Shown one piece after another: positions 17,691 through 61,431 of a DNA stretch of 64,000 nt. The number at the start of each line of letters is the position of its first letter. Position 1 is the first letter of the stretch. The stretch is from Eledone cirrhosa (taxonomy: Eukaryota): positions 92,566,001-92,630,000 of the forward strand of contig OZ024746.1 of NCBI GenBank assembly GCA_964016885.1, given 5' to 3'. Made by a program: the position numbers and the translations under genes. The notes beneath the pieces are model-generated. The model saw nothing but the letters and a program-made list of their open reading frames with translations. It did not search any database and was not told the origin of the DNA.

Positions 17691-17987
17691 ACCACTATTT
17701 TCTGTTTAGTTTTCGTCATGTCAGGAGTGTAGCCGTACTCATCACAATTGGCTAATTGTGGGTTGGTGAGGCTATTTAGCCTATAGTCAGGGTGGATGGC
17801 CCAGGATTTGGTGAGGGAGTCAGTTTAGTCACTGACCACTAAACCATGAAGCAGGTTGTACTGGGTTACATGGTATCAGTAACAGGCAGAAACCTGTATA
17901 TCCTCATCTCCACTATGAAATGATACTAGTAGACCCATGCCATTAATAACAATAGCAATTCCCTTGAATATATTTAATTGTTTTAGT

Positions 17988-27412: not shown

Positions 27413-27532
27413 TGTTCTTTAACTTTTAACATCCTATACCACTTAACAGAATAGCAAAACGTTCTTGAAAAGTACAAAACAGCACAATGACTGCATCACC
27501 TAAAAAGTACTGCAGCTAAAACAAACTTTCGA

Positions 27533-28430: not shown

Positions 28431-29061
28431 TGTAGTGTTAAGTTAAGTCTTAACTCTAATACTGTAAATTTTCAACCGATAATATGAACATTTATAAACA
28501 AAGATACTATAAACATTTGCAGTAACAAACTAGTTTTTAGACATTTTCTGCTAAATAATTTCAAAATTGTTAAGTGTTAAGAAACTCTCCTTTTTCTCTC
28601 ACTTCTTCCTGGTTGGATTGTGGGGTCAGAGTCCTCAAACTCTCTTTCTAACAACTGTCTTCAATTGATTACTCACCCAGTAATACTTGAACAGTATTAA
28701 GAAGATTTTTTTGTTTAAAGAAGACAATATGTCTCTGAGTATTACATTAAATCTGACATATTTCAGTTAATCCAGATGTAGAGAAAATAGATTTGATAAT
28801 ATATGCTGTACTAGAGTTGTAAACTATTCCAGGAAAATGTTTAATCTTCTCTGCTATTGACTCTCACCAACCACTTTACAGAGTGTACTGAGTGTGTTTA
28901 TCATGTGGATCACCAATTCAAGGGAGGTTGTACCTTTAACACAACTGAAGGTTCCTTCTGACTCTTTCTTTGCAAAGCTTTTTACAGCTGGATGCCATTT
29001 CTATTACCAACCATTTTACAGAGTATAATGTGTACGATAAATCTATTCTTTAATTTTTCAG

Positions 29062-33164: not shown

Positions 33165-33662
33165 AGTAATTCACAGTTTCGATCTATTTCAAAACCATGT
33201 AACAGCCTTCCCATTTTCCGTCCACCTTGCATCGTCTACTTGCAATGGTGACACACTGAATCTATTCAGTTGACTTCTATGCTAAACTTTATCCAGAATT
33301 GATAAAAAATTCATAATAATCAAAAGCCTTTGGTATATAACATACACGTTTTCTTCTGCTGAGTTTCAGTGCAACTTTATTCCACTGAAAGTTAGCAATA
33401 CCAAGTATCTGGAAATTATATTCACCTAAAGTGAAAAGGAAAAAATATTAAACATTATTTGTTTTTTATATATATATATATTTTTTCTCATGATGTAAAG
33501 CTTTCCATTAATGAATATTTCTTCTGTATCATCTAATATGCAAACACTCTCTCTCTCTTTCTCTCTCTCTCAACATTTTCAACTCCATTCTCCCCATTTA
33601 CTAGCAACATTCCTTCTAATTTTTCCCAACCGACATTTCCTGCTCTGAGCATAAATATTTTG

Positions 33663-34570
33663 AATTCAAACCTACACCATACCAAACCTACAGTACACCA
33701 CCATTTCAAACCTATACCACACCACCATTTCAAATCTACACCACACCACCATTTCAAACCTACACCACACCACCATTTCAAACCTACTGTACACCACCAT
33801 TTCAAACCTACAGTACACCACCATTTTAAAATTAACAGTATACTAATATTTCAAACCTACACCACTTGAGCATTTCAAACCTACGCTGCACTACATTACA
33901 CCACCATTTCAAACCTACACCACACCACCATTTCAAACCTACTGTACACCATTTCAAACCTACAATACACCACCATTTCAAACTTACACTACACCACCAT
34001 TTCAAACCTACAGTACACCACCATTTTAAAATTACAGTACACTAACATTTCAAACCTACACCACGCCACCATTTCAAACCTACACTGCTCTACATTACAC
34101 CACCATTTCAAACCTACAGTACACCACCATTTCAAACATACAGTACACTACCATTTCAAACCTACTGTACACCAAACGTACACCACACCACCATTTCAAA
34201 CCTACAGTTCACCACCATTTCAAACCTACAGTACACTACAATTTCAAACCTACAGTACACCACCATTTCAAAGCTACACCACACCACCATTTCAAAGCTA
34301 CACCACACCACCATTTCAAACCTACACCACACCACCATTTCAAACCTACACCACACCACCATTTCAAACCTACAACACACCACCATTTCAAAGCTACACC
34401 ACACCACCATTTCAAACCTACACCACACCACCATTTCAAACCTACAGTACACCAAACTTACACTACACCACCATTTCAAACCTACAGTACACCAAACCTA
34501 CACCACACCACCATTTCAAACCTTCAGTACACCAAACTTACACCACACCACCATTTCAAACCTACAGTAA
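33663..34570 (+). repeat. 24-bp minisatellite (CACCACCATTTCAAACCTACAGTA), array 1
   Basis: Direct repetition; source of the KWWC/FEMVV ORFs. Confidence 0.95.
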
Positions 34571-34728
34571 AGCTACTGAGTAGCAACATATATTAAGCCT
34601 CATTACAACTACAGACACTGCACACATCACACACTCACATACAGACCCACACATCTCAGAGGGAATGTTGCTAACCAACCATGTATCATAAAAATAATTT
34701 TGACAGTTAAGAAAATTTAATTCACTTC

Positions 34729-34742
34729 AATAAAACAATAAA
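34729..34742 (+). terminator. Candidate copine polyadenylation signals (2 x AATAAA)
   Basis: Tandem AATAAA ~1.6 kb after the stop; not verifiable without transcripts. Confidence 0.35.
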
Positions 34743-36694
34743 AGTTAACGAATGGAAAAAGGCATTTCACTTCCTTGACTTCTTTTAAAACTGACATATA
34801 CACATAACACACACATATAATACACACACATATGACACTCATATAACACATATAGCACACACATATCATACATTCTTTCTCTGGTTCCAACTGAAATCTG
34901 TGGCTGCAAGAGATGTAATCTTCCTTCTAAGTTATAACCATTATATAAACTTGAATGGGATTTTACAGCGTGAGTCGAAATCCCGCCGAGGTTAACTTTG
35001 CCTTTCATCCTTATGGGGTCGATAAAATAAAGTACCAGTAATACACTGGGATAATTGCTGGCCTTGTGCCAAAAGTAGAAACAATTATATAAACTTTATC
35101 GTTATATAAGCTTGACCATTATACAATCTTAAGAGTTATTCAAAATTGACCGTTATATAAGCTTGACCATCATACCAACTTGACCAAGTTTAACTGTTAT
35201 ATAAGCGTGACTATTATACAAGTGTGACCGTTTATTTATTATACAAACTTGACCGTTATATGAACTTGACCTTTATCTAAGCTTAAGCTAATGCTCACGA
35301 TTTATAGGTTTGCCCGTTATATAAGTTTGACCGTTATAAAGAGTGTAAGTGAGCCAGAAAAAGACATTTCTATCATTTTGTGATCTATCAGATCAAAGGA
35401 TAAAGCTACACAAGGTTGGTTTGAATGTCGGATATCTACATGGGTTGATAGAGAGAAATCATATCACATTAACAAGACATCCTTTCTTGTACAGTGACAT
35501 AACCATGGTAACAGCTATTTAATTATCGTGCGGTTTAAATTTTGCCGTTATGGTCCAATCCAAAAGTGGACCATTGTATATTGTCGAAAACAGAAGAGCC
35601 CCTCATTTTTCACTTCCACCCACAGAAATGTTGCTACTACAGTGCTAATATAAATTTGTTGGTTGACTAAGTTCCACCTTCATCCAGGAACTCTCAACTC
35701 CTCCGCACATCACACATCTTATGTCCATCTCTCATACCAATCACCATTCTCATTCATTCCTCCAGACCTTTTCAATTCCCTCTCAATATCACTTCTTCCT
35801 ACAACATACAATTTTTCAAGAGGAACATTTGTATATCCCAACAATCTTAGGAGAAAAAACATAATTCTTCCACCAGACCCATTCTTTTGTTTGTGATTTG
35901 TTTTAAAATATGATCTTGCAATCCAAATATTTCTATTCAAAATATTTCAATATTAACTGTTGTTTGTAATTCAAGTTCATTCAGTTAACAATGTACTCTT
36001 GGTTGCTGTTAACCATTAACATCTAAACTTAGAGTGAATCCTTCATAATGAGACATGAAGCATGCAAATAGTTCCTCAAAGTCTTTAAAATCTAATTTAA
36101 ATATTATTCAAACTGTTTATATGATAAAATTGGTGCTTAAGTTGGTTCTTTTCAAGATATCTAAAATATTTACATTTTATTAAAGTAGATTTCTGCCTGA
36201 ACACTAAAAGACACAACTAAAGATTCTGAGGTCAAATTTTACCAGAGTTAATTTAGCCTTCATCTCTTTGAAATCAGTTGAATCAGAAAGATCATCTACT
36301 AATCAGAAAAATCATCTACAAATATTGGTTTTGTGCCTTTGCAAAAGACAGTTTTACACAATATGAAAAATTGTTCTGTGTTTAATTTGAGTTTATAAAA
36401 TTCCTTAAATATAAACATTAGAAATTTGTGTTTGCATATCATCATCATCATCATCATCACTGTTTTCCATGCTAAGGCCAGACTGGCTTGGTTTTACTTT
36501 ACAGAGTGTACTGTGTGTACGGTTTCTACAGCTCGATGCCCTTCATAACACAAACCATGACTTTTCCCACCAGAACTACAACCTTACAAAGTGGACTGAA
36601 TGCTTTCATCATGGCATTAATAGTTTTCCATGCCAGCATGGGTTAGACCGGGTTGTTTTATCTCTCTGTTTCTACAGGTAGAAAAGGAGATCGA

Positions 36695-37735
36695 GGCATG
36701 ACTTTAGACAGTTGGAATCACTTTCCGACTGCACAGCTGCAATCACCTTTAGACAGCTGGTGTCACTTTTGGACAGATGAAGTCACTTTTAGACCACTGG
36801 AGTGACTTTTAGGATCCTAGAGTTACTTGTAAACCGCTGTGGTGATTTTTAGACAGCTAGCGTCACTTTTAGAGAGCTAATATGACTTTTAGACAGCTAG
36901 AGTTACTTTATGCAGCAGGAATTACTTTTAGTTAATTTTAAAAAGCTGGAGTCACGTTTAGACAGCTAGAAATGCTTTTAGACAGCTGGAGTTACTTTCA
37001 GAAAGCTGAAATAACTTTTAGACAGCTGCAGTGCTGTTTAGACTGCTGGTATCACTTATGGACAGATAGAGTCACTTTTAGACAGCTAGGGTGACTTTCA
37101 GAAAGCTGAAATCACTTTTTGACAGTTGGAGTGACGTTTAGACACCTGGGGTGACTTTTAGACAGCTTCAGTGATTTTATACAGCTGGGGTCACTTTTTG
37201 ACAGCTGGAGGCAATTTTAGACAGCTAGAGTTACTTTTAGACAGTTGGGGTCAGTTTTAGACAATTGGAGATGCTTTTAAACAGCTGCGGTGACTTTTAG
37301 ACAGCTAGAGTGACGTTTAGACATCTGGGGTCAGTTTTAGACAGCAAGAGTTACTTTTAGACTGCTAAGGGCAATTTGAAACAGCTGGAATCAGTTTCTG
37401 ACTGCAGGGGTGACTTTTAGATAGCTAGAATCAGATTTAGACCGCTGGTGTCACTTATGGACAGCTAGAGTCACTTTTAGACAGCTGGGATGACCTTTAG
37501 ACAGCTAGAGTTACTTTTAGACAGCTGGGGTGACCTTTAGACAACTAGAGTTACTTTTAGACAGCTGGGTGACTTTTAGACAGTTAGAGTTACTTTTAGA
37601 CAGCTGGAGTCAACTTTAGACAGCTAGAGTCAATTTTAGACAGCTAGATTTACTATCAGGCAGCTGGAGTGAATTTTAGACAGCTAGAGTCACATTCAGA
37701 TAGCTGGGGTTTTAGTTAGCTAGAGTCAGATTTAG
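36695..37735 (+). repeat. Degenerate 20-bp satellite (GAGTCACTTTTAGACAGCTG)
   Basis: About 50 diverged units. Confidence 0.9.
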
Positions 37736-37739
37736 TCCA

Positions 37740-38647
37740 ATACACCACCATTTCAAACCTACAGTACACCACCATTTTAAACCTACTGTACACCACCATT
37801 TCAAACCTACAACACTCCACCATTTCAAACCAACAATACACTACCATTTCAAACCTACACTACACCACCATTTCAAACCTACGATACACCACCCTTTTCA
37901 ATCCTACACTGCACCAACATTTCAAACCTACAGTACACTACAATTTCAAACCTACAGTACACCACCATTTTAAACCTACAGTACTCCAAAGTTACACCAC
38001 ACCACCATTTCCAACTTACACCACATAACCATTTCAAAGCTACTGTACACCACCATTTCAAACCTACACCACACCACCATTTCAAACCTACAACACACCA
38101 CCATTTCAAACCTACAGTACACCACCATTTCAAACCTTCACCACACCACCTTTTCAAACCTACAGTACACCACCATTTCAAACCTACATCACACCACCAT
38201 TTCAAACTTACAACACACCACCATTTCAAACCTACAACACACCACCATTTCAAACCTACAATAAACCACTACTCTACACCACCATTTCAAAGCTACAGTA
38301 TACCACCATTTCAAACCTACAGTACACCACCATTTCAAACCTACATCACACCACCATTTCAAACTTACAACACACCACCATTTCAAACCTACAACACACC
38401 ACCATTTCAAACCTACAACACACCACCATTTCAAACCTACAGTAAACCACTACTCTACACCACCATTTCAAAGCTACAGTACACCACCATTTCAAACTTA
38501 CACCACACCACCATTTCAAAGCTACAGTACACCACCATTTGAAACCTACTGTACACCAAAGCTACTCTAGACCGAACCTACACTGTTTGAAATAGTGGTG
38601 TGGTGTAGGTTTGAAATGGTGGTGTACTGTAGGTTTGAAATGGTGGT
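37740..38647 (+). repeat. 24-bp minisatellite array 2, with the last ~2.5 units inverted
   Basis: Same unit as array 1; 38587-38647 reads TTTGAAATGGTGGTG.. (reverse complement). Confidence 0.9.
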
Positions 38648-44942: not shown

Positions 44943-45117
44943 TACCAACATATACGGTAGTGTCCAATCCGTATGAAGAACTCAATGTAATCCAAATATC
45001 ATGAAAAGAGAAGATGCATTCAAAAATTTTCGATGAAAATCATAGGAAAACAGTCAAGATAAATTAATAAAAACAATGAAATAAAAACAAAGAACAAGTT
45101 CCTTATATTAAAAAAAT

Positions 45118-45253
45118 TCATCATTTTACGATCGTTTCTAGGATGTATATGTATGTTGGTATGTATATCATATAGATCTATGTAAAAATATTACAAATTA
45201 TCAGAGGAAATATACATACCTTCACATATACATGCTGTCTTCAGAAATGATGA
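45118..45253 (-). ncRNA. Hammerhead ribozyme motif in the left pseudo-LTR
   Basis: Reverse-complement copy of 46291-46414 with an intact core. Confidence 0.8.
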
Positions 45254-46290
45254 GATTTGTTTATTGAAAAAAAACAACAAAGATTTAATATAAAAGGTCT
45301 GTTTGGGAACAGGTTTTTAATTGACCAATAGAAAAGTAGTTAGAGGTCAAGTTTATAGAATAGTGATAGTAGAAATTTAATTTAGGGGTAGATGAGTGCT
45401 GACTTATGTTTTGAATGAAAAGAATACTTTGAATGAAAAGAATACTTTTAGGTCAGGTTGTAATCGATATTCTTCTTTCTATAATTATTAATTGTTTCAG
45501 CCAAGGATGTTGTATTAGCTAATGCGGCATTTTTAAAACTATGTTTGTGGGTATTAAATCTTACTTTAAATTGGTTAGACGTAGCTCCTATATATGAATA
45601 AGTGGAGTCCTTAGTGCTAATTTTACATTCATAGACTATGTTATTAATAAGACAATTTGCCTTTAATGGGCAATTTCTTTTGATTCTACAGTTACAACCA
45701 TTCGTGAATATTATATCAGGGGAGTTATCCAAATTTGGTGTGGAATTTACTCGACTTGTTATAGGTGAAGGAGATGGTGGTTTGTTGCGGTTTATTTTAG
45801 TATTATGATGGGTTTGATGTGTTGGTGGTATATTTGTGGGGTTTTTACATTTATATTTTGTTGTATATTTTTGGTAGTGGAGTAGTAAAATTTAACAGTT
45901 GATCTATTTAAAATTTGATGGTATTTATGGTTTGGCGGGAAATTTTTCTCTAGGATAGTAAACAATTTTTTAGGGATATTATCTTTAATTTGTAGATTAA
46001 ATGGAGCATTATACCAAGTGACCCGTCTATTACGGTTTCGATATTGTTTTTTATATTTATACGATGTATCAGGATGTTTACTAAGAGAGTTACTATTGGT
46101 GAATTTATTATATATAGGTTTAGTTAGATGAACTGATTTAGGTATTTTAGTCTGATTACTAGGAATTTTGTTAGTAATGTTGTTAACATATATTTGACCT
46201 CTAACTACTTTTCTATTGGTCAATTAAAACCTGTTCCCAAACAGACCTTTTATATTAAATCTTTGTTGGTTTTTTTTCAATAAACAAATC

Positions 46291-46414
46291 TCATCATTTC
46301 TGAAGACAGCATGTATATGTGAAGGTATGTATATTTCCTCTGATAATTTATAATATTTTTACAAATTATCATACAACACACATATACATCCTAGAAACGA
46401 TCGTAAAATGATGA
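46291..46414 (+). ncRNA. Hammerhead ribozyme motif in the right pseudo-LTR
   Basis: TCATCATTT-CTGAAGA-stem II (ATGTATATGTG/CACATATACAT)-GAAAC GATC GTA-AAATGATGA; 9-bp perfect stem I; predicted cut after 46405. Confidence 0.85.
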
Positions 46415-46504
46415 ATTTTTTAATATAAGGAACTTATTCTATGTTTTTATTTCATTGTTTTTATTAATTTATATATTTATATATATAAATATATATATAT
46501 ATAT

Positions 46505-46590: not shown

Positions 46591-47536
46591 TATATGTAAA
46601 GTGATTGTAAGTGGAATCTTTTTTTCCAAAGATATAACGTTCATTTTTAATGATAGACATAATACATCAAGTGACAGAAGGTAATTATTTAATGCATACA
46701 ACATCCAATGTAATTAATAAAAATGATTATTTATGTCTTCCGCCATCAATCATTGCTATATATATATATGTGGTTAGAGACAAGACATATGTTTAATTTT
46801 GTACCATTCATGACATCCTTTACTTAGAATGTAATATAATAATTGTTTCTACTTTTGGCACAAGGCCAGTAATTACCCAGTGCATTACTGGTACTTTATT
46901 TTATCGACCCGTAAGGATGAAAGGCAAAGTAAACCTCGGCGGGATTTGAACTCAGAATGGCAAGGACCGTAACTCTATGCGTCAAAGCATGGCGTCAGAC
47001 CCTCTACCGATACTGCCAATCCAATACATTCATTAGCTGTCAACAATTGGTGTCATATAAATTGTAGAAGAAAAATTGTAAAATATTATCTACATCTGTT
47101 CATCAATATTGGTGACACTTCATTATGTAAATACCTCTTTACAGGTAATTAATACCTCAAACTTACTTCGCTGCTTTCTCCTTTTAACAGTAAGTGAAGT
47201 TTTCCAAACCTTTCCTTTTTGAGTTTTTAATCATTATATAATTCTGCCATAATAATTGGTATAATAGGATTTGCCTCGCCTATCATAAAAAACGTGGTGG
47301 AAACAACTAACGACAAACATCCTTAAAAGAGGGTCCCTAATTATTCTAGATATGTAATATCCACACACACACAGACTCTCACACACACACACACTTGTAC
47401 ACATATAGATATACTGTAGTTTAAGTTTAGTAGAAATATTCAAGTATCTGTTTATGTCACTGTTGTAGATAATAATATTTAACTCGTGCTATGTACTGGG
47501 TAGTACATAGCACGAGTTAAATATTATTATCTACAA

Positions 47537-47684
47537 CAGTGACATAAACAGATACTTAAGTTTTGTTGGGTTATACACTTGAACACATTCATACTGTTAT
47601 ATAAAATAATGTGTTATGTATAATAGACTGAACAGGTTGGGGGTGTATAACCCCACGAATCTTAAGTACCCGTATATGTCACTG
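47537..47684. mobile_element. MITE with ~42-bp TIRs (present in both arms; mate ~60719-60866)
   Basis: CAGTGACATAAACAGATACTTAAG..GGGTTATACAC / GTGTATAACCCC..CTTAAGTACCCGTATATGTCACTG. Confidence 0.7.
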
Positions 47685-48202: not shown

Positions 48203-50108
48203 TGTTTCTTTTATTTGCCACCAGGGCATCAAAAGTGGGACAAGTACAATGGGGGGAGTTTACAAAACAAGGCGTCCTCAATAAGGAGGAGGCAATAACA
48301 ATATATAAAAATAAAATAAAATATAACAAAAAATAAAATTTATAACAAAGTCCTCAATAGAGAGGAGGCGCCTTGGGGGGTCGCACACACCCCCGAAAAA
48401 AGTGTGCAACCCTTCTCCTCAGGAGCACAGAGAAGGGGTGCTCCCTCGGTCTTTCATCTTCCTCACCTATAGTCTGATGTAGAGTGAAGGCCCATTCACA
48501 CGGGCCATTCTCGCCACTTTCACCCATCTTTCATAGAAACGGCTGGGGTGCAGCACCTCTCTCTCAATCCTGATCCTTCTTCCGAAATGATATCGGAAGA
48601 AACGGACCAGTTGTTGGCCAGAGAGAAAGGTGTCTGACCTCAGTCCTTTCAGACGCGTCCACCATACAACCCCTTTCGCCATGGCTATTACGCACAGAAA
48701 CACCGCCTCTCCTTCGTTTTTGAAGAGGGGAGGCGGCTTGATCGTTACAATAGACTCGGTGGTCAACCGGATCGGTCCCACCCTTGACAGCAGTTGTTCG
48801 ACATAGCCCCACAGATCGGCAATGCCCGAGCAGTGTACCAATGCGTGTGCAACGGTTTCCTCGTCGCACACGCATCTGGGACAGACCTTTTTCGATGGGT
48901 CCCTACCCGGGCGCCCGTGTCTGTAGAGCCTTTCTCGAACGGGCAGAGCCCTTCTGTAGCATTGCCAGGCCAGGGACCTCTGGAAGTTATCCATGGGTCC
49001 CGGGCTGAATGTCCTACCGAACAGGTTGGCCAGTTCGTCTTCCTCCATGCCTAGGGTTTCTCCGAGGGCGTCGTCGCACCTGCTAACCACCAGCCCTCTA
49101 TAGAATGACGAGGTGGATTCTCCACTGACAGCCGGGTCCGCCTGCCAGAGAGCCGTGAGCGCCTGGGCACACTCGGTGTGCCAGGCGCCCAATTTTCTCG
49201 GTCTTTGCTTGACCCAGGATTGCAGCTCGGTGAGTGAGACGAGTCTGGGAAAGGCTCGCCTCACAAACGGGGCCCACACCGGTTGACCGGAGAGGAATAC
49301 CTGAAGGTGCCGTAGCCTTAATGCGTGTTTACGTATCATTAGCCACGGCATCCCCAGCCCTCCTTTCGAAGGGTGTTGACAGCAGATGGATCTCCTCACC
49401 ATAGGAGCCCGCTTCTTCCAAAGGAATTGGAAGAGTGCGCGCTCCATTTTGGCGAGCGTTTCCCTTGGGCAAGGCACCACGGTCAGGCGGTAGTAGATGA
49501 CGGACGCTATATAAGTGTTCGCCACCTCCGCCCGTCCTTTCAGGGACAGTTTGCACTCGGCCCACTTCTGGGTCAGTGAAAACACCCTGTTCGTCACCTC
49601 ACCCCAGTTCTTCTCCACCTGGAGGTCTGGTCCGAACCAGACCCCGAGAAACTTCACCGGGCCCTCCGTCCAGCGCCCGACGACGCCATCGGAGGGCATC
49701 GATCTGCCCCTCCACGTGCCGAGTTGCAGACCGATCGACTTGTCCCGGTTCAGCTTAGCCCCTGTAAACCTTTCATACTCCTCCAGTAAGGTGCCGATCG
49801 CCCCGATTTCCGAGGCCGTCGACACCATTACTGTTACGTCATCGGCGTAGGCTGACACCGCTTTCCGCAATCCCGGTTCCAACGGGATGCCCTGCAACAA
49901 CTCCAACTTCTGCAGCAGTGGTTCTAGAGTCACTACATACAGAAGGGAGGAGAGAGGGCACCCCTGTCGGATGGACCGCGCGATTTCGAACGGCTCCGAG
50001 AGGTAGCCGTTCACCTTGACCCTAGAGCAGATGCGGCTGCTGTGCATGGCATTGATCCAGCCCCTGAAAACGGGTCCGAAGCCTGCCGCCGCTAGCACCG
50101 CATCCAGG

Positions 50109-50216: not shown

Positions 50217-50292
50217 GTGAATACTTTGATGATATTTTCGCTCTCATTGATGTCTTTGTATGCAGTAAATGCTGCAAATGACGTTGAACAGG
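50217..50292 (+). CDS. Secreted Cys-rich protein, left paralog, signal-peptide exon: (V)NTLMIFSLSLMSLYAVNA-ANDVEQ
   Basis: TTTCAG acceptor, GTAAGA donor, ends phase 1; first codon is GTG where the right paralog has ATG, with an in-frame ATG at codon 5. Confidence 0.75.
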
Positions 50293-50998
50293 GTAAGATA
50301 AAAATATTTGCATAACTAACCATTTAAAATATATCTTAAAGAGAACCCTGCACATTCTTTCCTCTACAGTTATCTCGTGGCTTAATAGTTAGGGGTGTTC
50401 GGCTCTTGAGTGTAAGGTCATGAGTTCAATTCCCGAAAGTGTTGTGTCATTAAGAGATACACTTTGTTTCACATTGTTCCTGTCCAGTCGGCTGGTAAAA
50501 ATGCTTTGTTCCCATAATTCAAAAACCCATTCTTGTCACATACTGTGCAATATTTCACGTGTTTGTGGAATTCTAAGCCATTTACACGTTAATCTCACGA
50601 GCAAGTCGTTCAGTTGTACGAATAACTGGAACACTTATCGCCGTAACCGATGGAGTGTCCAGCATCAACAACAGTGTTCTCATATTTTAAAGTCTACCTT
50701 TATGGATATATATATATTCATCATGCTATTATATTCTGTGTCTATGAGAGACATCAAATTTTGGGTTATATAAAATACGGTGTGTCATGAGCATTTCAAA
50801 CCTGAGGAACCTCTCCAGGTCGGTACAGAGCAGATTTCTTCCAGGGAAGGAGAGAGTGATAGAGAGAAATAGTTATAGATGAAGACTTTACCTCAGAAAT
50901 GGACTGGTACTGTTTTTATCTACATCAAAGAGATGAAAGGCAAAATTGATCTTCACGTGATTTGAATTCAGAGTGCAAAGAGCTTCAACGAATACTGT

Positions 50999-51621
50999 TG
51001 TAGTGACCTACATTCCGCGGGCTCACATACATTCTCTGTGCGTGATTTGGCTCAGCTCAGCCTATCAGCGCCAGTAGAAGAGAATGTATCCCTACGCGCC
51101 CTGAGGGAAAAATTCCCGTGTGGATTTGAGAAATCTCTCTCTTGCACGCTGACTTCGAAAAGGTAAACGCCTAACTTTCTTTCGTCGTGAAATCACTAGC
51201 CAACATGTAACACAATAACTTAACCATGGCCTGGCAACACTTCAGCCAGTAGACCGTGTCTCCTGAACTCTTAATTCGTTTGTTTTATCTCTCATGGCAT
51301 GCCAGCTACTCAGCTCCACTCAGCTCAACCTTATTAATAAATAATGTAAAACAAGCAAAGTCGTTGTCGATATTCCTAACATCTTACTACCAAACTGTTA
51401 CCACAGCAATGCCTTTAAATGTGATATGGAAGGATTCCTTCCAGAGGTATTATCACAGCAGCAACAGAACCTGAGACTTACAGCCTAACCTCGAATCTTC
51501 GTATTGATACATCTTCTCCTAAAACCATCCTATTAAAACTGGTGACTTTCAACGCAGGAGTATTTAAGTACGAAATGCTCCTTTAAAATATATATATACA
51601 TCAACCCAACATCCTGTTAAA
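50999..51621 (+). mobile_element. Solo-LTR-like insertion (TGTAG...GTTAAA) with CTGT TSD
   Basis: Empty site AATA-CTGT-AAAG is preserved in the right arm (~58863-58874); CTGT at 50995-98 and 51622-25. Confidence 0.75.
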
Positions 51622-51723
51622 CTGTAAAGTATTCTATTCGACGTTCTAACGACTCTGCCAAATTGCTGCCTACAACTATATAATATTGCTTCGTTAATAA
51701 TATTGTACTATATTTATATTTAG

Positions 51724-51861
51724 AATGCCGTGGATGTTTCTACCAAGGAAAATGCCACGAATTCGAAGAAGAATGGATGGTAGAGGACGGACTGGTGTGT
51801 TATCTGCAAACATGCGTTTATTTAGGTTGGGGGAAATGGAAAGTACATCCGGAACATGTTT
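51724..51861 (+). CDS. Secreted Cys-rich protein, left paralog, module exon: (E)CRGCFYQGKCHEFEEEWMVEDGLVCYLQTCVYLGWGKWKVHPEHV
   Basis: TTTAG / GTAAGT, 138 nt, symmetric phase 1-1, open frame, Cys spacing conserved with the right paralog. Confidence 0.85.
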
Positions 51862-54827
51862 GTAAGTTCACAAAAAATTATTACATTTTTTAATAAATTT
51901 TTGTAACTAATGCCTACGTACATTTATTTTGTGCATTCTTTTGAATGCAATAGGCTTTGGTAAGTTTAATTCTTTCGGCAGTTACCCATTATAGAATAAC
52001 CAGCTGGAACACAAACGAAGGTGGCCACCTCAGACCACAGCTAATTATGTCAATCTCAATATTAGACATTAATTATTACTTCAACACCAGAAAGGTGAAA
52101 GGCAAAATCAAGCTCCGACAGAATTTGAATTCTGAACTGCAGATATGTAAATAAATATCATCGGAAAGTACTTTGCTTACTTAACTTGTAGTAAAAGTTG
52201 CAAGACTGGTAAATGGGAAACAATATATTTATCTGATCTTCCTTGAGTATCTTTGAATTATATTTAGATTTGTATGTAACTTCAATCATATCCAATTTTC
52301 AAAATGTCTGTTGTTATGTGAAGCTGATGGGATAATGTAACACAGAAAGATAATTGTTATTAATGAATTTGAGAATCATCACTTCAATATATTTTACCTT
52401 TTTTCTATGTTTCAGATCAGTGATTTATCATATATTATTGAGGTTGCCTGTTCAACTGAACGTTAAACTAGGTTTTAATCAGTGTAAAATCAATATCTTA
52501 ATAGACTCTCCAAATTAATCACAATCTCAACAAACATTCCCCAGTAATGATACACCTATAATATTATAATACGCATACAAGGTTGAACTTATAAACTGTG
52601 ATTATAAATATAAATATAAATATGTACATAAATTTAGGCATATGCTCAAACGAAAGCCATTACTTAGAGAAACCAAACATATACAAAAAAAAATAACCAT
52701 ATTATTTCATTCGATATGTTTCAGTCAACTAACCACATGAATTCCATTCTACGTTTCCACATTCCACATCAACCAAAGCAACGTTCATTCCTACAATTTT
52801 TTTTGTACTTAATCAGATTGTTTCTAGATAATTGTGTTCTTTTTTATATCCCTTCAAAATGCGGGAGATCTTTATGCCCCACCCTGTATATATATATATG
52901 TGTGTATGTGTGTGTATGTGTGTGTGTGTGTGTGTGATTTCAGTTTGAAGTCCACTATTCCGTTGTTTTCTTTTCTTTGTCTTCTTTCCTCCTTCTATCT
53001 GTTCTGTTTGTTTTATCACACACACACATCAAAGCAGAATCATGCGGAACCATTTTGCTGGTTTGATAGCTGATGAGTGTGAAGATTTGTGGGAACTTGT
53101 TTTGTATATCGTGGATTGGCTCTCTCCCGACCACTGTTCATAAGACAGAGAAAGTAATGCATTTCAGTAATAAGTATCAATAGACTTAAGTTATAAGTTA
53201 TCATCTAAATGTTAAGTGTTGTAGATTTTTAGGATATTGGTTATAATGAATTTTAAAGTTGCTTTTAGTGTATAATGACTTAATTATAATTTCCTTTGTA
53301 GGATGTCCACGAATCGTCGGCGACTAAACAGGCAACCCCACCAAGTTTACTTGGTGAGGAGGGTGATTTTGGACACCCTGCAGGACAAAAAACAAAACGT
53401 GACAAAGGGCGGAAGAGCTCATAAGAGTCAACGGCCATCCGAAAGTGTGTAAGTATGTATATACACATGTACCGCGCGGTTAAACCACTGGGAATGAAGG
53501 ACCCCTAGCCTTTGTCAGGGCATTCTTCCAGGAGAAGGCAACTCAGGAAACTGGGATAACTCTGATATAAAACCTGCGGCTCAGTAGTTACCGATGATGT
53601 TGATCTTTTCTTCTTTTCGGGTTATAGCTACTGTCGCTCAGAGAGTGGGATTGGCTTTCCTCACTTTAAAAAATATCTTCACGCACAGGCATTGCACGAT
53701 AGAATTAATTAATAATTATTAATAATGGTATATCGTGCAATGGCCATACTCGATAACGAGGCGGCACCCATTATATATATATATATATATATATATATAA
53801 TGTTATGGAATACTGTTAGCTTCTCGCTACAACAATTTCTATACCTTTCATTTATATATATATATATATATATAGCGGCGATGAATTAGTTTTGCGAGGT
53901 TTTTTATTCCAACCCTTTCCTCTATTATTTGGGGCCCAAGAGTAGCGATTGCTAACTTTGAAAACAACTTCCCTATTAGCAATTGCATATTTTCAAGGGA
54001 CTCTACTCTACATGCACTCTATATATAAATAGAAAAGTAATTTCCCTTCGAATTTTATCAGCGAGTCGGGTGAATATAATGTATAATATTTTCAAATAAT
54101 TCATACATTAGAATATATATTTTGTGAAGGTACGGTGTTCTGAGAGAACCGATAACTCATCGAACAATTTAGTTACGTCTCTTTAAGTTGCACGTTCAAA
54201 TCCCATCGTAGCAAATTGTATCTTTCATCTCTTGGGGTCATTACCGAAATGTTCCAGTTAAGTGTTGTCGATATAATCTAACATTGCAGAGGTGATTATA
54301 AAGGAATATAAGATGTGTTTATTATACGTAAAGATATTGTATATGCTTCCGTATACACCTCTATTATGAAACACGCTATGTTAGTGCTACTGCTATTAAT
54401 TGTATATTAGTCTATGTGTTTATATTCGAAATCTACATAAAATTCATAGTGCTATTTTCTTCACTCTTTCCCTCTCTTCCTTTAAAGTTGGTTTCGGTAC
54501 ACGAAGTTGGGTACTGTAGGGGGCTTATATAATGTCAGGTCGAAGGTTAGGGTCTTAAGTAATCCCTTTTGATTCACAAGGGAGAAATAACAGTTGATTG
54601 GAAGTGATGGCATGCTGTGTCTAACCATTCTATTAGTATCTTTACACATGTCACACGATAAATGGACGTAACTCTTGTTCTGAATCCCTATGTTACATCT
54701 GAAATATTCTTTGCTAATTGTGTGAAGTTACCTTTCTAGGAGATCCTCGTTAGATCACCACATACATAGATAGCAGAAGGAATTAGAATGGTTGAGACGA
54801 TACTGTAGCGTGTCAAATCATCTACAT

Positions 54828-55140
54828 CAGTGCTTCGCAAAGTATCTGATGTGGCGGACCGGCATTTTTTTTTTTTCAATGTGCCACGTACCGCTAATAT
54901 TTCGTAGTAATATTAATTTATACCGGAAACGATATATATAATGAATATAATAATAGTTGACCATTTTTTTATCTTCTATTTATTTTGTAAACAAATAATA
55001 CAATATCAAAACATATAAAAAAGTAATAAAAAAAATTCCTCAAATGATTCCTTAGCATGGCCTGGACACTGGCCGCGTACCGGTAGCTGATGGCTCGCGT
55101 ACTGGCACCGGTCCGCTGACCACCACTTTGAGTAGCACTG
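54828..55140. mobile_element. hAT-type MITE with 8-bp TSD
   Basis: ATCTACAT|CAGTGCTTCGCAAAGT ... ACTTTGAGTAGCACTG|ATCTACAT. Confidence 0.9.
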
Positions 55141-55471
55141 ATCTACATGAATATAACACTGGCTTTCATCTGTCTGCCTCACCATTTACGCCATCTCGGG
55201 AGAGACTTAAACGTGACTGCATGGCTTATGTTTTCATCTCATGAGCGGTGGAGTTCTTGACCAAACCAAGCGTGGTGCCTTCTGAGTAAAACTCACAACT
55301 TAATGATAATGCACTGAACACCCTAACCACAAAGTCGCACACTTCTATTTAAATTGCATTACTACACCCCTTCATATTAGAATATGGTAACAAAAGAGCT
55401 AATAAACTATCACCCTTGTTAAGAAATTCTGCACCATAGTTATCATACACACACACACACACACACACAAG

Positions 55472-55577
<106 letters not shown>

Positions 55578-55829
55578 ATATTTGGGGATCGTCATGTTGC
55601 CAATATTACCAATAGAAAGAAACACACGCACCATATAATATTCTCTTTATTTGTAACTTGATTTTTCGTTATTTATATGTTTGTCAAAGTTCATTCGTCC
55701 CACATTCTGTGACCTCCTCAATGATTACCTGCTTTGTCTCATCTTTTTCTTGGGCTTAAATTTCTAATCTTGTATTCATGTTGTGAGACTCCTTCCAACT
55801 GCAATCACATATATATATACACACATATA

Positions 55830-56678
55830 GAGGGTGGGGCATAAAGATCTCTCACATTTTGAAGGGATATAAAACATGAATACAATTATCTAGAAACAAA
55901 CTAATTATATTTCTAAAAAGTACAAAAGAATAGTTTTTTGTTTTGATGTTTTTTTTAAAATGACATTAGACAAATGGCGGTCGTCGTTGGCAATACATTG
56001 ATAAATTTGTTCCCGGAAGTTCTACATGACGCTCTGTGTCATCTAAGGTAGAATTGCGTCGATTTCCTATCTGATCCTTTCCTTCAAATAATAAAGAGTT
56101 CAAGGACAATATTGGAAACCCCTTTTCCTTTCGGTATCTCCAAAGTAAAATGTCACAATGGCTTATATCTGGTGACCTTGCCAGCCACACGACATGTCAC
56201 CTTGCAGAAATCAAACACCCAAGAAACATTTCACACAAAACTCCGAGCGAAAGTCGTGCTATGTTAGCTGCGGCCTCGTCATGTTGAAACCGGATATGCC
56301 CTGTATCCAAATCGTCCACAGTGCACAGAAGGGTCTCCAATATTTCGATGTACCGGTCAGAGGTTACAGCAGCCAAATCACGCCAATGTCGGCAACTGCA
56401 CACCAAACAGTTACGAGAGGAAAGTGAAGCGGTCAATCGTGGAGTTCATGGGAATTATGTTCAGCCCAGTATCAGACATTCTACTTATTTTCGGTCCCAT
56501 TGCTTTATAGGTGAGACTCATCGATACTCAGAAGACAGCTGTAGTGGGAACTTGTTCAAGAATGATTATTGTTAAAGAAATTGATAGAGTGTAGCTTATC
56601 GAAAGAGAGCTGCCGCGCCCCTCTACCACCATACAGCGCACTCTAAATCTAGGAGAACTTTATTCCTTCCCCATCCTG
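55830..56678 (-). mobile_element. Internally deleted Tc1/mariner element
   Basis: TA-flanked TIRs (C/G)AGGGTGGGGCATAAAGATCTC; decayed transposase FQHD.A..WLARSPDISHCD.LLW; its 3' end is also at 52797-52886. Confidence 0.85.
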
Positions 56679-56691
56679 TATATATATGTAG

Positions 56692-56761
<70 letters not shown>

Positions 56762-57046
56762 TACATTCACCATATCCGACCTGGACGAGTTGACCTCGAG
56801 GTCGATTCTTGCCAGAGCGGGAACCATCGATTACATGTCGTAGCTGATAGTCCCCACAGGCCCACCTAACGTGGTTATTTAACCACTTCAATTTTAATGC
56901 TGCACTAGAAAGGAAATAAAATCAAGTTACGTGAAAAATAGAATAAAATGACTTTAAATGACCTTAAATATTTTCCGTCACAATGGAAATTTGGGAAATT
57001 CGGAAAAATTTATCCGAATACAATTCGTTAGCTATTTTTATTATAC

Positions 57047-57186
57047 TCACAAATCCGAACAATTATTATAAGTGAGGTAGATCTCCTTTGTATTGTCGTT
57101 AGTGTGGCAAGCATATTTTACACAACCCATTACATCGTACCACGTTGCACCATTTCCAACACAAGTACCATAACGATCCCGACAAT
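57047..57186 (-). CDS. Secreted Cys-rich protein, right paralog, second module exon: (Y)CRDRYGTCVGNGATWYDVMGCVKYACHTNDNTKEIYLTYNNCSDL*
   Basis: TTTTCAATTTACAG acceptor, phase-1 start fits the preceding exon, and it repeats the C..C..W..C....C spacing. The TGA overlaps a possible GTGAGT donor at 57050, so the true C-terminus is uncertain. Confidence 0.8.
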
Positions 57187-58630
57187 CTGTAAATTGAAAA
57201 CATAACAGACAGCATATTTGATAGGCTTCTGAAACATTTACCTACGATATCATTATATTAATAAAAATACATTTTAGGGGGTGCTTATATTTGTATGTAT
57301 TTATGTGTTTATAAACCTGCTATTACGAAACCGTTTAAGCATTTTTTATATTGGTTTCACAATATTTTCTGAAATCTAAAAGGGTTAAGATGAAAGTGTA
57401 TATGTTTACGTTCTGTAACTAGGGATTGTAAAGTGACAGCTTACATTTCTCTGTTTATAGTATCCACAATCACCCTTAAAGGGATATAATATTGGGGTAT
57501 ATTTTATTGTGTAAATATTGAATGAGATTAGGATTTGGTATAAATGTGGATGTGGTGGCTTTATGTGTTTCTTTTATGACAGTGTTAGGAATAAACGTTG
57601 CTTTGGTTGATGTGGAATGTGGAAGCGTAGAATGGAATTCATGTGGTTAGTTGACTAAAACAAATCGGATGAAATGATCTGGTTATGTGTTTTTTAAAAA
57701 TCTGTTTGGTATCGCTAAGTAATTGGCTTTCGTTTGAGCATATGCCTAAATTCATGTACATAGTTTATGTGTATTACAGCTCACACCTATGCAGGTTTAG
57801 CTGGCCTACTCCAAGGTATATCTCGTTGGAGGTGTCTTGGATAATGTAATGATAGTGAACCTAGTCCTATCATCTCATTTCTACAGCTGAGTCAACTGGA
57901 GCAACGTGAAATAAAGTGTCTTTCTCAAGAAAACAACACATCACCCGGTCCGAGAATTGAGCTCACAACCTTTCGATTGCAAGTCCAATGCTCTAACCAC
58001 TAAGCCATGCGCCTTCACACTAATATATGATAAATCACTGATCTGAAAATATTTGTAGGATACTACTTTGCAACACAGAAAAAAGGTAAAATATATTGAA
58101 GTCAAGATTCTCAAATTCATTAATAACAATTATTTTTTATATAATTGTTTCTACTTTTGGCACAAGGCCATCAATCACCAGTACATTACTGGTACTTTAT
58201 TTTATCGACCCCGTAAGGATGAAAGGCAAAGTTAACCTTGGCGGGATTTGAACTCAGACCGTAAAGGGACGTAAGCTGGAAAGCATGGCGTCCGACTCTC
58301 TACCGATACTGAAAATTGAGCATGATTGAAGTAACATACAACTCTAAATATAATTCAAAGATACTCAAGGAAGATCAGATTTACTGCAACTTTTACTACA
58401 AGTTAAGTAAGCAAAGTACTTTCCGTTGGTATTTATTTACATAACTGCAGTTTAGAATTCAAATTCTGTAGAGCTTGATTTTGCCTTCCACCTTTCTGGT
58501 GTTGAAGTAATAATTACATGTCTAATATTGAGATTGACATAATTAGCTGTGAACTGTGGTTGCCACCTTCGTTTTTATTATGTTGTTACAAAAATGTATT
58601 AAAAAATGTAATAATTTTTTATGAACTTAC

Positions 58631-58768
58631 AAACTTTTTTCGTATATACACTCCACCCTCCCTCAATCGGAGCCATGCATTTTTCCTGGGAACACATCTG
58701 ACTGGACAGTATTATCCATTCTTCTTCGAATTTGTGGCAACTTCCGAGGAAGTAACATCCATTGCATT
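58631..58768 (-). CDS. Secreted Cys-rich protein, right paralog, module exon: (E)CNGCYFLGSCHKFEEEWIILSSQMCSQEKCMAPIEGGWSVYTKKV
   Basis: TTTAG / GTAAGT, 138 nt, phase 1-1, open frame. Confidence 0.85.
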
Positions 58769-60008
58769 CTAAATATTAATATAGTACAATATTATTAACG
58801 AAGCAATATTATATAGTTGTAGGCAGCAATTTGGCAGAGTCGTTAGAACGTCGAATAGAATACTTTACAGTATTCGTTGAAGCTCTTTGCACTCTGAATT
58901 TAAATCCCGTGAAGATCAACTTTGCCTTTCATCCTTTCGATGTAGATAAAAACAGTACCAGTCCATTTCTGAGGTAAGGTCTCCATCTATAACTGTTTCT
59001 CTCTATCACTCTCTCCTTCCCTGGAAGAAATCTGCTGTGTACCCACCTGGAGACGAATGGGCTTCATCATGTTTCAGATGCTCATGAAACACCGTATATC
59101 AATACACTGTCCCTATGACACCATGAGGAGTGACGGATACATACAATATTATATAGTTAGTATTTAATAAAGTAATTTTATTATTAATTATGAGAAAGTA
59201 GACTTGACATCGCTAATATACCGCATATATGCTATCGAATCTGCTTCAGTGAATTTCAGTGTTGAAATCCAGTAAGATCAATTGACTCAGCCCCTCCCTG
59301 TTTCGTTAAAACACTTGTGATTAAAAAACGACATCAATATTTATCAATAGAAACCTATAATCTACAAATTGGCTCAGTTATTGCTGAAAGAAACTATTAT
59401 TTTGGAGCGGAAGGTTAACACGAAGAAGAGGTAATGCCGGTATATAATTGTGGTCCAACAGTTGTTCTGTTGTTTGTATTTATAAACAGTCGTAGAGTAA
59501 GAATAAATTATGTGAATATATCTAAATATTTAAAAACGTTTAATTGATCATTATGTATCAACAATCAATTTTAGAATGTAATTTAGGAACATATTACAGG
59601 TTATATCTGCTTAAAATAATTTTCATTTACATAACCAAAAATTTGATGTCTCTCATAGACACAGAATATAATAGCATGATGAATATATATATATCCATAA
59701 AGGTAGACTTTAAAATATGAGAACACTGTTGTTGGGCACTCCACCAACTGAACGACCTCGTGAGATTAACGTGTAAATGGTTTAGAACTCCAGACACGTG
59801 AAATATTGCAGAGTTTGTGACAAGAATGGGTCTTTGAATTATGAGAACTAAGCATTTTACCAGCCGAGTAGACAGGAACAATGTGAAACACTTTCGGGAA
59901 TTGACCTCTTAACTGAACACCCCTAACTATTAAGCCACGAAATGACTGTATAGGAAAGAAGATGAAGATATATTTAAATGGTTGGTTATACGAATATTTT
60001 TATCTTAC

Positions 60009-60093
60009 CATTTCTTAAATCACTTAAATTTTTTGTTGCATTTACTGCATACAAAGACAACAATGAGAGCGAAAATATCATCAACGTATTCAT
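60009..60093 (-). CDS. Secreted Cys-rich protein, right paralog, signal-peptide exon: MNTLMIFSLSLLSLYAVNA-TKNLSDLRN
   Basis: TTTCAG|ATG start, hydrophobic core, V-N-A small-residue cleavage site, GTAAGA donor in phase 1. Confidence 0.85.
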
Positions 60094-61431
60094 CTGAAAG
60101 TACAAATATCATTTGAATTAGTCACTGGTAAATTCACCTTATCTATCTATCTATCAATCTATCTATATATGTATCTACCTATCTACCTTTCTATTTATCT
60201 ATTTATCTCTCTATCCATTTGTCTATCTATCCATATATATACATATATCTTGGAACCTAGTTGTAATAAACTTATTCATATATAGATATATATATATGAA
60301 AATACAAGAGTGCTTTTACTTATTGCATTACGTTCTGCAAATCGGAATTAGTAGATCTATCTATTAGTTAAACCATCCAACATAAACGGTATATATACTT
60401 GTGCCATGGAAGTACGAGAAATCTTAACGGTAAAGAAATTACTGAATTCTAGACAGGATAGGGAGTCCCAACTAGTGGCCCCAGTTTCAACAATTGTTTC
60501 TATGGAGACAAATATAGTGCCCCAGTACGAAGAACCAAACAATTAATAATTTAAATGGTTCTCAAACAATAAATCTCTATTTTATCTAGAAAAATTGATA
60601 GATACGTTGAGTTACTTAACACATACAGAAGAATAAAAATAAAACAAAAATATTAAAAAAGTAAAACCAACGTCTCAATATTCTTTACATGCTTTCTTCA
60701 CATTTCGATGCTTGGTTTCAGTGACATATACGGGTACTTAAGATTCGTGGGGTTATACACCCCCCAACCTGTTCAGTCTATTATACATAACACATTATTT
60801 TATATAACAGTATGAATGTGTTCAAGTGTATAACCCAACAAAACTTAAGTATCTGTTTATGTCACTGTTGTAGCTAATAATATTTAACTCGTGCTATGTA
60901 CTGGGTGTCCTTGAATATTTCTACTAAACTTAAACTACAGTATATCTATATGTGTACAAGTGTGTGTGTGAGAGAGAGTGTGTGTGTGTGGATGTTACAT
61001 ATGTAGAATAATTAGGGACCCTCTTCTAAGGATATTTGTCGTTAGTTGTTTCCACCACGTTTTTTATGATAGGCGAGGCAAAGCTTACCATACCAATTAT
61101 TATGGCAGAATTATATAATGATTAAAAACACAAAAAAGGAAAGGTTTCGAAAAGTTCACTTACTGTTAAAAGGAGAAAGCAGCGAAGTAAGTTTGAGGTA
61201 TGAATTACCTGTAAAGAGGTATTTACATAATGAAGTGTCACCAATATTGATGAACAGATGTAGATAATATATTGATGAACAGATATAGCAATGATTGGTG
61301 GAGGAAGCAGAAAACAACTGCAGATAACATAAATAACCATAAATGTCACCAATATTGATGAACAGATGTAGATACTATTTTACAATTTTTCTTCTACAAT
61401 TTATATGACACCAATTGTTGACAGCTAACGA

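What the first reader, a model, noticed from the sequence alone, without database searches (positions are those of the whole stretch)
50217..60093. Hidden pair of secreted Cys-rich protein genes with conserved signal peptide and flanking DNA but hypervariable mature region
Seen: two convergent paralogs not shown by the ORF track. The right copy splices 60093-60009 + 58768-58631 + 57186-57047 into a 120-aa protein: a 19-aa signal-like leader plus 10 Cys in two C..C..W..C....C modules. The shared 138-nt exon differs at 46/138 nt and 28/45 aa by hand count, with no stop or indel. All 5 Cys and both scaffold Trp are kept, and only one synonymous change occurs among the 17 identical codons. The ~98 intron nt just upstream differ at 1 position. 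The signal peptides differ at 2 of 19 residues and the sequences diverge immediately after the cleavage site. Known: exon-faster-than-intron evolution on a fixed Cys scaffold is typical of conotoxins, snake toxins and gamete-recognition proteins. Inference: a rapidly diversifying cephalopod secreted ligand family (pheromone, reproductive, venom or immune).
Basis: partly seen in the sequence, partly recalled or inferred. Interest (0 to 1): 0.92.

Follow-up and report, generated by a model that had tools for sequence, protein, structure and literature searches.

The report
Fast-evolving octopus secreted two-finger protein family
A cluster of four related octopus genes, one of them damaged, encodes small cysteine-rich proteins that are predicted to be secreted and to fold like a pair of fibronectin 'finger' modules; their protein-coding exons have changed several times faster than the surrounding DNA, which likely marks an undescribed binding-protein family racing against a changing partner, perhaps in reproduction.

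Summary
There are four copies, not two; C and D lie just past the window. Five uncharacterised Octopus sinensis and O. bimaculoides proteins share the 10-Cys spacing across the predicted splice junction, which supports the gene model. A homologue's AlphaFold model (pLDDT 82) matches tandem fibronectin type I module pairs best, with a different Cys pattern; no Pfam family passes its cut-off. Codon models support positive selection (omega about 2.4; M8 vs M7 p=7e-5 for both exons); C vs D show 13 nonsynonymous and 0 synonymous changes. Two corrections: intron identity is partly gene conversion (mosaic p=5e-5; exon dS about 0.25 vs non-coding 0.05), and the left copy is damaged (GTG at the start, last exon deleted, LINE in intron 1). 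No RNA run was available, so expression, tissue and function are untested. Verdict: a real, undescribed secreted family under diversifying selection, evolving like MSMB/snake SSP arrays; a reproductive role is the narrow favourite.

The parts
61220..61229 (-). Copy B: TATA-like box (TATGTAAATA; TATATAAATA in copies C and D), 66 nt before the first donor in all four copies
   Evidence: promoter role inferred
61164..61200 (-). Copy B: predicted non-coding first exon (5' end approximate), ending at a GTAAGT donor; splicing would put AACA directly before the ATG
   Evidence: inferred, no RNA
60009..60093 (-). Copy B: leader exon (19-aa hydrophobic signal-like peptide + 9 variable residues), phase-1 donor
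   Evidence: max KD9 2.53; SignalP not run
58769..59770 (-). Copy B: intron tract almost identical to copies C/D (6 of 972 nt differ from D), likely conversion tract ending at the exon acceptor
58631..58768 (-). Copy B: module-1 exon, 138 nt, 5 Cys, phase 1-1
   Evidence: DNA contig with 0-2 differences
57047..57186 (-). Copy B: module-2 exon, 5 Cys, stop codon
   Evidence: DNA contig with 0-2 differences
57037..57042 (-). Copy B: AATAAA just after the stop (also in C, D); a GTGAGT overlapping the stop and an ATTAAA at 56898 leave a further small 3' exon possible
47124..47189 (+). Copy A: TATA-like box and predicted non-coding first exon ending at 47189
48203..50108 (-). LINE fragment (RVT_1, zf-RVT) inserted in intron 1 of copy A only
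50217..50292 (+). Copy A: leader exon; first codon reads GTG, in-frame ATG at codon 5 (50229)
50999..51620 (.). About 620-nt insertion in intron 2 of copy A, absent from B
   Evidence: alignment gap
51724..51861 (+). Copy A: module-1 exon, open, 5 Cys and both Trp kept
51862..51897 (+). Copy A: frame runs on past the donor to a sixth Cys and a stop at 51893, overlapped by AATAAA at 51892 (at this spot only A has the exact hexamer)
   Evidence: use of this end is untested
52793..52810 (+). Copy A: junction of a roughly 1.7-kb deletion that removed the module-2 exon and 3' end (present in B, C, D)

Best explanation
This is a four-gene cluster of an undescribed octopus family whose mature exons carry an excess of amino-acid-changing substitutions; the genes are predicted to encode secreted, disulfide-locked pairs of fibronectin-type-I-like modules that likely work as non-enzymatic binding proteins for a fast-changing extracellular partner, most likely in a reproductive secretion. 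Shown: four copies, gene structure, 10-Cys framework shared with five Octopus proteins, omega>1, mosaic non-coding DNA, damage to copy A. Predicted: signal peptide and the two-module all-beta fold. Inferred: each phase 1-1 exon is one module; the variable positions cluster at the C-D and D-E hairpins and would set partner specificity; gene conversion homogenises introns while selection keeps converted exons from spreading, giving sharp divergence peaks on exons; copies are born (C/D, 19-kb tandem unit) and die (A) quickly. Odds: family real and secreted about 0.9; positive selection about 0.85; binding protein about 0.75; role reproductive/pheromonal 0.35, venom/saliva 0.25, antimicrobial/immune 0.2, toxin-binding or other 0.2.
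For: Homologues: 3 of 4 hits in 1.84 billion representatives and 5 of 207 candidates in the 90% database are Octopus sinensis/O. bimaculoides 'uncharacterized' proteins; all five full-length ones have Cys spacing 2,5,14,4,16(18),6,14(15),4,17 vs 2,5,14,4,16,6,12,4,15 in B, the 16 spanning the splice junction. Fold: AF2 of the O. bimaculoides homologue, pLDDT 82, 75 of 123 residues >=90, all beta; all 5 Foldseek hits with E<=0.001 are fibronectin FnI entries; VIA-align ranks 1-6 are FnI modules (Z 6.7-4.5), then vWC and MSMB3; Atlas structure row 1 is Fn1_2. Selection: M0 omega 2.4-2.5 (p=0.011 both exons), M2a vs M1a p=7e-5, M8 vs M7 p=7e-5, M8 vs M8a p=7e-6, similar with F1x4; C vs D 13 nonsynonymous, 0 synonymous, 13/294 coding vs 31/2543 intron p=3e-4. 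Conversion. Reproductive lean: MSMB-family parallels and the statement that octopod-ancestor genes are highest in male reproductive tissue (PMC3268785 passages; PMC7656900 section 9); tested coleoid venom families are mostly under negative selection (PMC4619613 section 7).
Against: No expression evidence for any copy in this genome. Only 4 sequences (3 independent lineages) and 45+38 codons, and conversion violates the single-tree assumption of the codon models. For the shared exon alone omega>1 is borderline (p=0.049-0.050), and with a double-nucleotide-mutation term significance drops to p=0.14 (one exon) and 0.018 (both exons); that null needs about 39% doublet events whereas the flanking non-coding DNA shows 1-5%. 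13:0 on its own gives p about 0.03-0.055. Fold similarity is moderate (TM 0.35-0.46 by query; top Z 6.7 is under the tool's caution line of 8) and was obtained on a homologue, not on copy B. A shared fold shows no function; the tissue assignment rests on analogy only.
Confidence: 0.58

Rival explanations
1. The family is a venom or saliva component of the posterior salivary gland, diversifying against prey targets as conotoxins do.
For: Conserved leader, fixed Cys frame, hypervariable mature region and tandem duplication are the classic toxin signature (established knowledge); no sequences are reported for the active components of octopus crude extracts (bioRxiv 10.64898/2026.04.09.716377, parts 1-2 of 6).
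Against: No similarity to a known toxin in Pfam or PDB; the homologue accessions searched were not found in the readable, cut supplement of an O. vulgaris salivary-gland proteome (weak); tested coleoid toxins are mostly under negative selection.
Confidence: 0.25
2. The family is an antimicrobial or pathogen-binding protein of mucus, egg coat or haemolymph, driven by microbes.
For: C and D are cationic (18 K/R vs 7 D/E), as are four of five homologues; vWC-clan single-domain proteins act in invertebrate immunity (recalled).
Against: B is acidic (8 vs 11) and so is module 1 of A; homologue accessions absent from an O. vulgaris skin-mucus proteome supplement (weak).
Confidence: 0.2
3. The family is a toxin- or protease-binding protective protein, like snake small serum proteins.
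For: The habu SSP array is tandem, partly inverted, LINE-damaged, has a dead copy and accelerated evolution, and SSPs bind venom proteins (abstracts of PMC6609765, PMC7150969); MSMB3 appears among the fold matches (Z 4.2).
Against: No PSP94 profile match; no partner known.
Confidence: 0.1
4. The exons diverged under relaxed constraint and are simply older than the introns, which gene conversion has reset; no positive selection.
For: Conversion is evident; dS about 0.25 exceeds non-coding 0.054 (6/27 vs 131/2423, p=0.003); a neutral model with double mutations fits nearly as well (lnL -698.4 vs -697.2).
Against: dN (0.57-0.98) is 2.4-3.9 times dS; doublets are rare in the flanks; neutral decay would keep an open frame with all Cys/Trp in only 1-4% of simulations; divergence peaks stop exactly at exon edges; C vs D 13:0.
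Confidence: 0.12

Closest known systems
Uncharacterised Octopus proteins XP_036359380.1, XP_036359366.1 (O. sinensis); XP_052825015.1, XP_052824407.1, A0A0L8IDT5 (O. bimaculoides)
   Same: Same size (117-154 aa), hydrophobic leader, same 10-Cys two-module framework; 27-46% identical over module 1. These are the same family.
   Different: Different leader sequence; the four copies here group together against them (91/98, not starred), suggesting separate expansions. No function is attached; one carries an automatic 'Pleiotrophin/Midkine' label that Pfam did not reproduce.
Fibronectin type I module pairs (e.g. PDB 3ejh 8-9FnI, 2cg6 2-3FnI); MIG-18-like Fn1_2 (PF23003)
   Same: Two tandem ~45-aa all-beta modules; best structural matches; Cys-x12-Trp core; one phase 1-1 exon per module.
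   Different: C-x4-C rather than the C-x-C of FnI (recalled), extra Cys, no Pfam Fn1 match, stand-alone secreted protein rather than part of a mosaic protein.
beta-microseminoprotein family (MSMB, Loligo beta-MSP, snake SSPs; PF05825)
   Same: Small secreted 10-Cys proteins; in New World monkeys multi-copy with an intron more conserved than exons and rapid change outside leader and Cys (PMC3268785 passages); SSP array anatomy; partial fold overlap (37 residues, Z 4.2).
   Different: No PSP94 profile match; two similar modules rather than a six-strand Greek-key domain plus four-strand domain. Works-like analogue, not membership.
Conotoxin-type hypervariable precursors
   Same: Conserved signal peptide, fixed Cys frame, omega>1 in mature region.
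   Different: No propeptide room (6-9 residues between leader and first Cys), about 100-aa two-module mature protein, only four copies, venom-gland expression unknown.

Membership tests
Fibronectin type I module (FnI / Fn1_2) | ~45-aa module of a two-stranded plus three-stranded beta sheet | tested here: met
   Predicted on homologue P0009; Foldseek E 5e-4, VIA Z 6.7, single module rmsd 1.6-2.3 over 41-44 residues
Fibronectin type I module (FnI / Fn1_2) | Pfam Fn1 or Fn1_2 profile match | tested here: not met
   0 of 12 alignment members match at E<=10;
Fibronectin type I module (FnI / Fn1_2) | C-x-C on strand D and a Cys within strand E (1-3, 2-4 disulfides; recalled) | tested here: not met
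   Spacing is C-x4-C then 16-18 residues to the next Cys
Fibronectin type I module (FnI / Fn1_2) | One module per phase 1-1 exon (recalled) | tested here: met
VWC / single-domain VWC | Pfam VWC score above cut-off and C-terminal CC-x-x-C subdomain (motif recalled) | tested here: not met
   1 of 12 members, 14.5 bits vs cut-off 27.6; no CC in any member
beta-microseminoprotein (PSP94) | Ten Cys in a ~100-aa secreted protein | tested here: met
   B and 5 of 5 homologues have 10; D has 9, C has 8
beta-microseminoprotein (PSP94) | PSP94 profile match | tested here: not met
beta-microseminoprotein (PSP94) | Whole two-domain MSMB fold | tested here: inconclusive
   Only 37 residues of module 1 align to chicken MSMB3, Z 4.2
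Venom toxin family | Conserved leader with hypervariable, positively selected mature region on a fixed Cys frame | tested here: met
Venom toxin family | Expression in venom gland and toxic activity | not testable with these tools
   No RNA holder listed
Secreted protein | Cleavable signal peptide | tested here: inconclusive
   Hydrophobic core KD9 2.5 ending in V-N-A, homologues 2.3-3.2; divergence starts right after residue 19; SignalP not available

The most novel reading that the evidence does not exclude
An octopus-specific family of stand-alone 'double-finger' ligands with its own disulfide framework, expanded separately in each lineage and driven by sexual or species-recognition conflict: an octopus counterpart of squid beta-MSP and gamete-recognition proteins (or else a first conotoxin-like hypervariable octopus venom family), with copy A surviving as a one-module, six-Cys form ended by an intronic polyadenylation signal.
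Probability: 0.35. Interest if true: 0.82.

Novelty: new variant of a known kind. Interest (0 to 1): 0.6.

Why it matters
Few cephalopod secreted proteins are known to be under strong diversifying selection; the coleoid venom families tested so far are mostly conserved (PMC4619613). This gives a concrete, small, testable candidate family for octopus mating chemistry, venom or immunity, with existing accessions in two model species whose tissue RNA-seq can settle the question at once. It also adds a new disulfide variant of the FnI-pair scaffold and a clean case of exon divergence maintained against gene conversion.

Tried and rejected
No RNA holder listed. The three coded runs are DNA contigs of one sample; they hold B's two module exons with 0-2 differences and a C/D-type exon, but no listed contig carried A's module-1 letters or bridged A's deletion junction; the tool filters records, so this hole proves nothing, and depth is no copy number. 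Single-exon homology searches found nothing; exon-only Pfam and PDB-sequence searches gave nothing significant (vaccinia A33 and chordin hits at E 0.2-1). The exon-only model (pLDDT 63) gave no fold match. P0006, 1 of the 4 hits, was dropped as a low-complexity repeat. A weak profile hit at 13585-13668 (E 0.04) looks like repeat DNA without the exon frame; a C5 hit at E 0.8 was not followed. No fifth copy in 464 kb or in 7 whole-genome protein/DNA searches; these are lower bounds. The first mosaic test had an inflated intron-3 count from forced alignment and was redone on shared BLAST columns. A PSP94 genome search rang nowhere, controls included, and is uninformative. One search was circular. 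My first guess of a mitochondrial insertion at 45300-46200 was wrong. Literature: no paper held any of six accessions; searches showed no description of this family; supplement searches of PMC7693380 (file cut), PMC12607849 (393 characters only), PMC10138644, PMC9712504 (one file unreadable), PMC8976471 found none of the family's accessions; PMC12691039 supplements could not be read and may bear on the reproductive reading. No earlier scan findings. No complex prediction was sent, as no partner is claimed.
Full report
Observation. The right copy (B, minus strand) splices 60093-60009, 58768-58631 and 57186-57047 at AG/GT sites into an open 120-aa product with 10 Cys. Against the left copy (A, plus strand) the shared 138-nt exon differs at 46 nt and 28 of 45 residues, with one synonymous change among 17 identical-residue codons and one difference in the 100 nt upstream; leaders differ at 2 of 19 residues.

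The cluster is larger. Whole-genome searches with the module-1 exon, the module-2 exon, the leader DNA and four homologues found the same four places and no convincing fifth; a profile scan of 464 kb around the window agreed. Copies C and D lie past the window on the minus strand, tandem to B and 18.9 kb apart (C: C6:92646371-92643446; D: C6:92665308-92662377); their exon lengths (76+138+137 nt) give open 116-aa products, with 8 and 9 Cys. Every copy has a TATA-like box 66 nt before a GTAAGT donor, implying a short non-coding first exon whose splicing would place AACA before the ATG, and B, C, D have AATAAA just after the stop. These are inferences from sequence; no RNA run was listed.

Copy A is damaged. 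Its first codon reads GTG (an in-frame ATG remains at codon 5), a LINE fragment sits in intron 1, and a roughly 1.7-kb deletion removed the module-2 exon that B, C and D share. Its module-1 exon is nonetheless open with all Cys and Trp; random substitution of a comparable exon keeps that in only 0.7-3.8% of 20,000 trials for 25-15 changes, so most of A's divergence predates the damage. A's frame also runs past the donor to a sixth Cys, a stop and an AATAAA, so a one-module product is possible but untested.

Relatives. A seven-sequence module profile against 1.84 billion representatives gave 4 hits, 3 of them Octopus proteins (the fourth, a low-complexity repeat, was dropped). A second profile gave 5 hits among 207 candidates, all Octopus. 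The five full-length proteins (O. sinensis XP_036359380.1, XP_036359366.1; O. bimaculoides XP_052825015.1, XP_052824407.1, A0A0L8IDT5) have a hydrophobic leader and 10 Cys spaced 2,5,14,4,16,6,14,4,17 (one with 18 and 15), against 2,5,14,4,16,6,12,4,15 in B; the 16 crosses the splice junction, which independently supports the gene model. In each species the database hits with a contig lie on a contig of the same length, consistent with clusters. The four local copies group against the five (91/98, unstarred; B is a long branch), suggesting separate expansions. The host is inferred to be an octopod from these relatives and the 3.0-Gb genome; it was not identified further.

Fold. No Pfam family passes its cut-off; the best is VWC at 14.5 bits in 1 of 12 members. 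AlphaFold2 of the O. bimaculoides homologue gave pLDDT 82, two all-beta modules. All 5 Foldseek matches with E<=0.001 are fibronectin FnI entries; VIA-align ranks FnI modules first (Z 6.7, 5.6, 5.2; single modules rmsd about 2), then vWC and MSMB3; the Atlas points to Fn1_2/VWC. TM-scores are moderate (0.35-0.46 by query) and Z is under the tool's caution line, so this is a supported clan-level fold assignment, not family membership; the Cys pattern differs from canonical FnI (recalled). Loss of the last Cys in C and D and then of Cys8 in C hints that these two pair (inference).

Selection. GY94 models written here: shared exon M0 omega 2.37 (p=0.049), M2a vs M1a p=0.003; both exons omega 2.46 (p=0.011), M2a vs M1a p=7e-5, M8 vs M7 p=7e-5, M8 vs M8a p=7e-6, about 36% of sites at omega near 9; F1x4 gives the same picture. 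Eleven of 83 codons have posterior >0.9 (naive empirical Bayes), mostly on or near the C-D and D-E hairpins when mapped by alignment onto the model's strands (mapping is my inference). C and D differ by 13 nonsynonymous and 0 synonymous changes in 294 mature-coding nt, against 31 of 2543 intron nt (p=3e-4). Against: allowing double-nucleotide mutations lowers support to p=0.14 (one exon) and 0.018 (both), but that null needs about 39% doublet events while the flanks show 1-5%. The sample is small and recombining.

Gene conversion. Non-coding divergence is patchy, 1-13% by segment. On columns shared by all four copies, upstream DNA groups A with B (44 vs 6 and 10), intron 2 sets A apart (22 vs 9 and 1) and intron 3 is mixed with B most distinct (chi-square p=2e-11; 49 runs among 133 sites, permutation p=5e-5). 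B and D differ at 6 of 972 nt right up to an exon that differs at 45 of 138. ML dS is about 0.25, above the A-B non-coding 0.054 but not significantly above the oldest segment (p=0.16). So the introns are younger than the exons, and the exons are additionally accelerated: conversion and selection together.

Mechanism. Most likely a secreted, non-catalytic FnI-pair-like ligand whose hairpin surfaces bind a changing extracellular partner. FnI pairs bind peptides along a sheet edge (the top PDB matches are collagen- and FnBP-peptide complexes), which offers a model but no proof. The closest evolutionary analogues are the MSMB family, where New World monkey copies show an intron more conserved than exons and a squid member is an egg-capsule pheromone (PMC3268785, passages), and the habu SSP array with inversion, LINE damage, a dead copy and accelerated evolution (PMC6609765 and PMC7150969, abstracts). 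Conversion between inverted duplicates has precedent (PMC3375281, abstract). Genes dating to the octopod ancestor are most expressed in male reproductive tissue (PMC7656900 section 9), and tested coleoid toxins are mostly under negative selection (PMC4619613 section 7). These tilt, only slightly, towards reproduction (0.35) over venom (0.25), immunity (0.2) and others.

Novelty. The pattern is a known kind and homologous gene models exist in RefSeq, but none of my paper searches or five supplement searches found a description; subscription literature was not searchable. I rate it a new variant of a known kind, interest 0.6.

Noticed in passing
window 45040-46480: AT-rich segment flanked by inverted arms (45160-45275 / 46269-46384, 91%); minus-strand frames resemble the GIY-YIG end of a Penelope-like retroelement (motif recalled; no Pfam hit). 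Not a mitochondrial insertion.
   Followed up: partly
L006:2022-3232 and window-extended 95043-96163: A shared insertion with long open frames, LINE-like by eye, begins about 250 nt after the stop of both C and D and is absent from B; only a weak DUF3915 hit.
   Followed up: partly
window 47442-47684 and 60719-60867: A palindromic MITE-like element in intron 1; A carries an extra short inverted duplication of its end.
   Followed up: no
window 16781-19850, 26316-27456, 33528-38430: Long minisatellite arrays with 45-, 23-, 32-, 24- and 20-nt units; the 23-nt array gives spurious tblastn hits to module 2.
   Followed up: no
window 27504-28432 (+): Two overlapping GC-richer open frames (197 and 212 aa), probably transposon-derived; not identified.
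   Followed up: no
G000:C6:92366001-92830000: By eye, the long open frames in the 464 kb around the cluster are almost all transposon-like; no neighbouring host gene was identified.
   Followed up: partly
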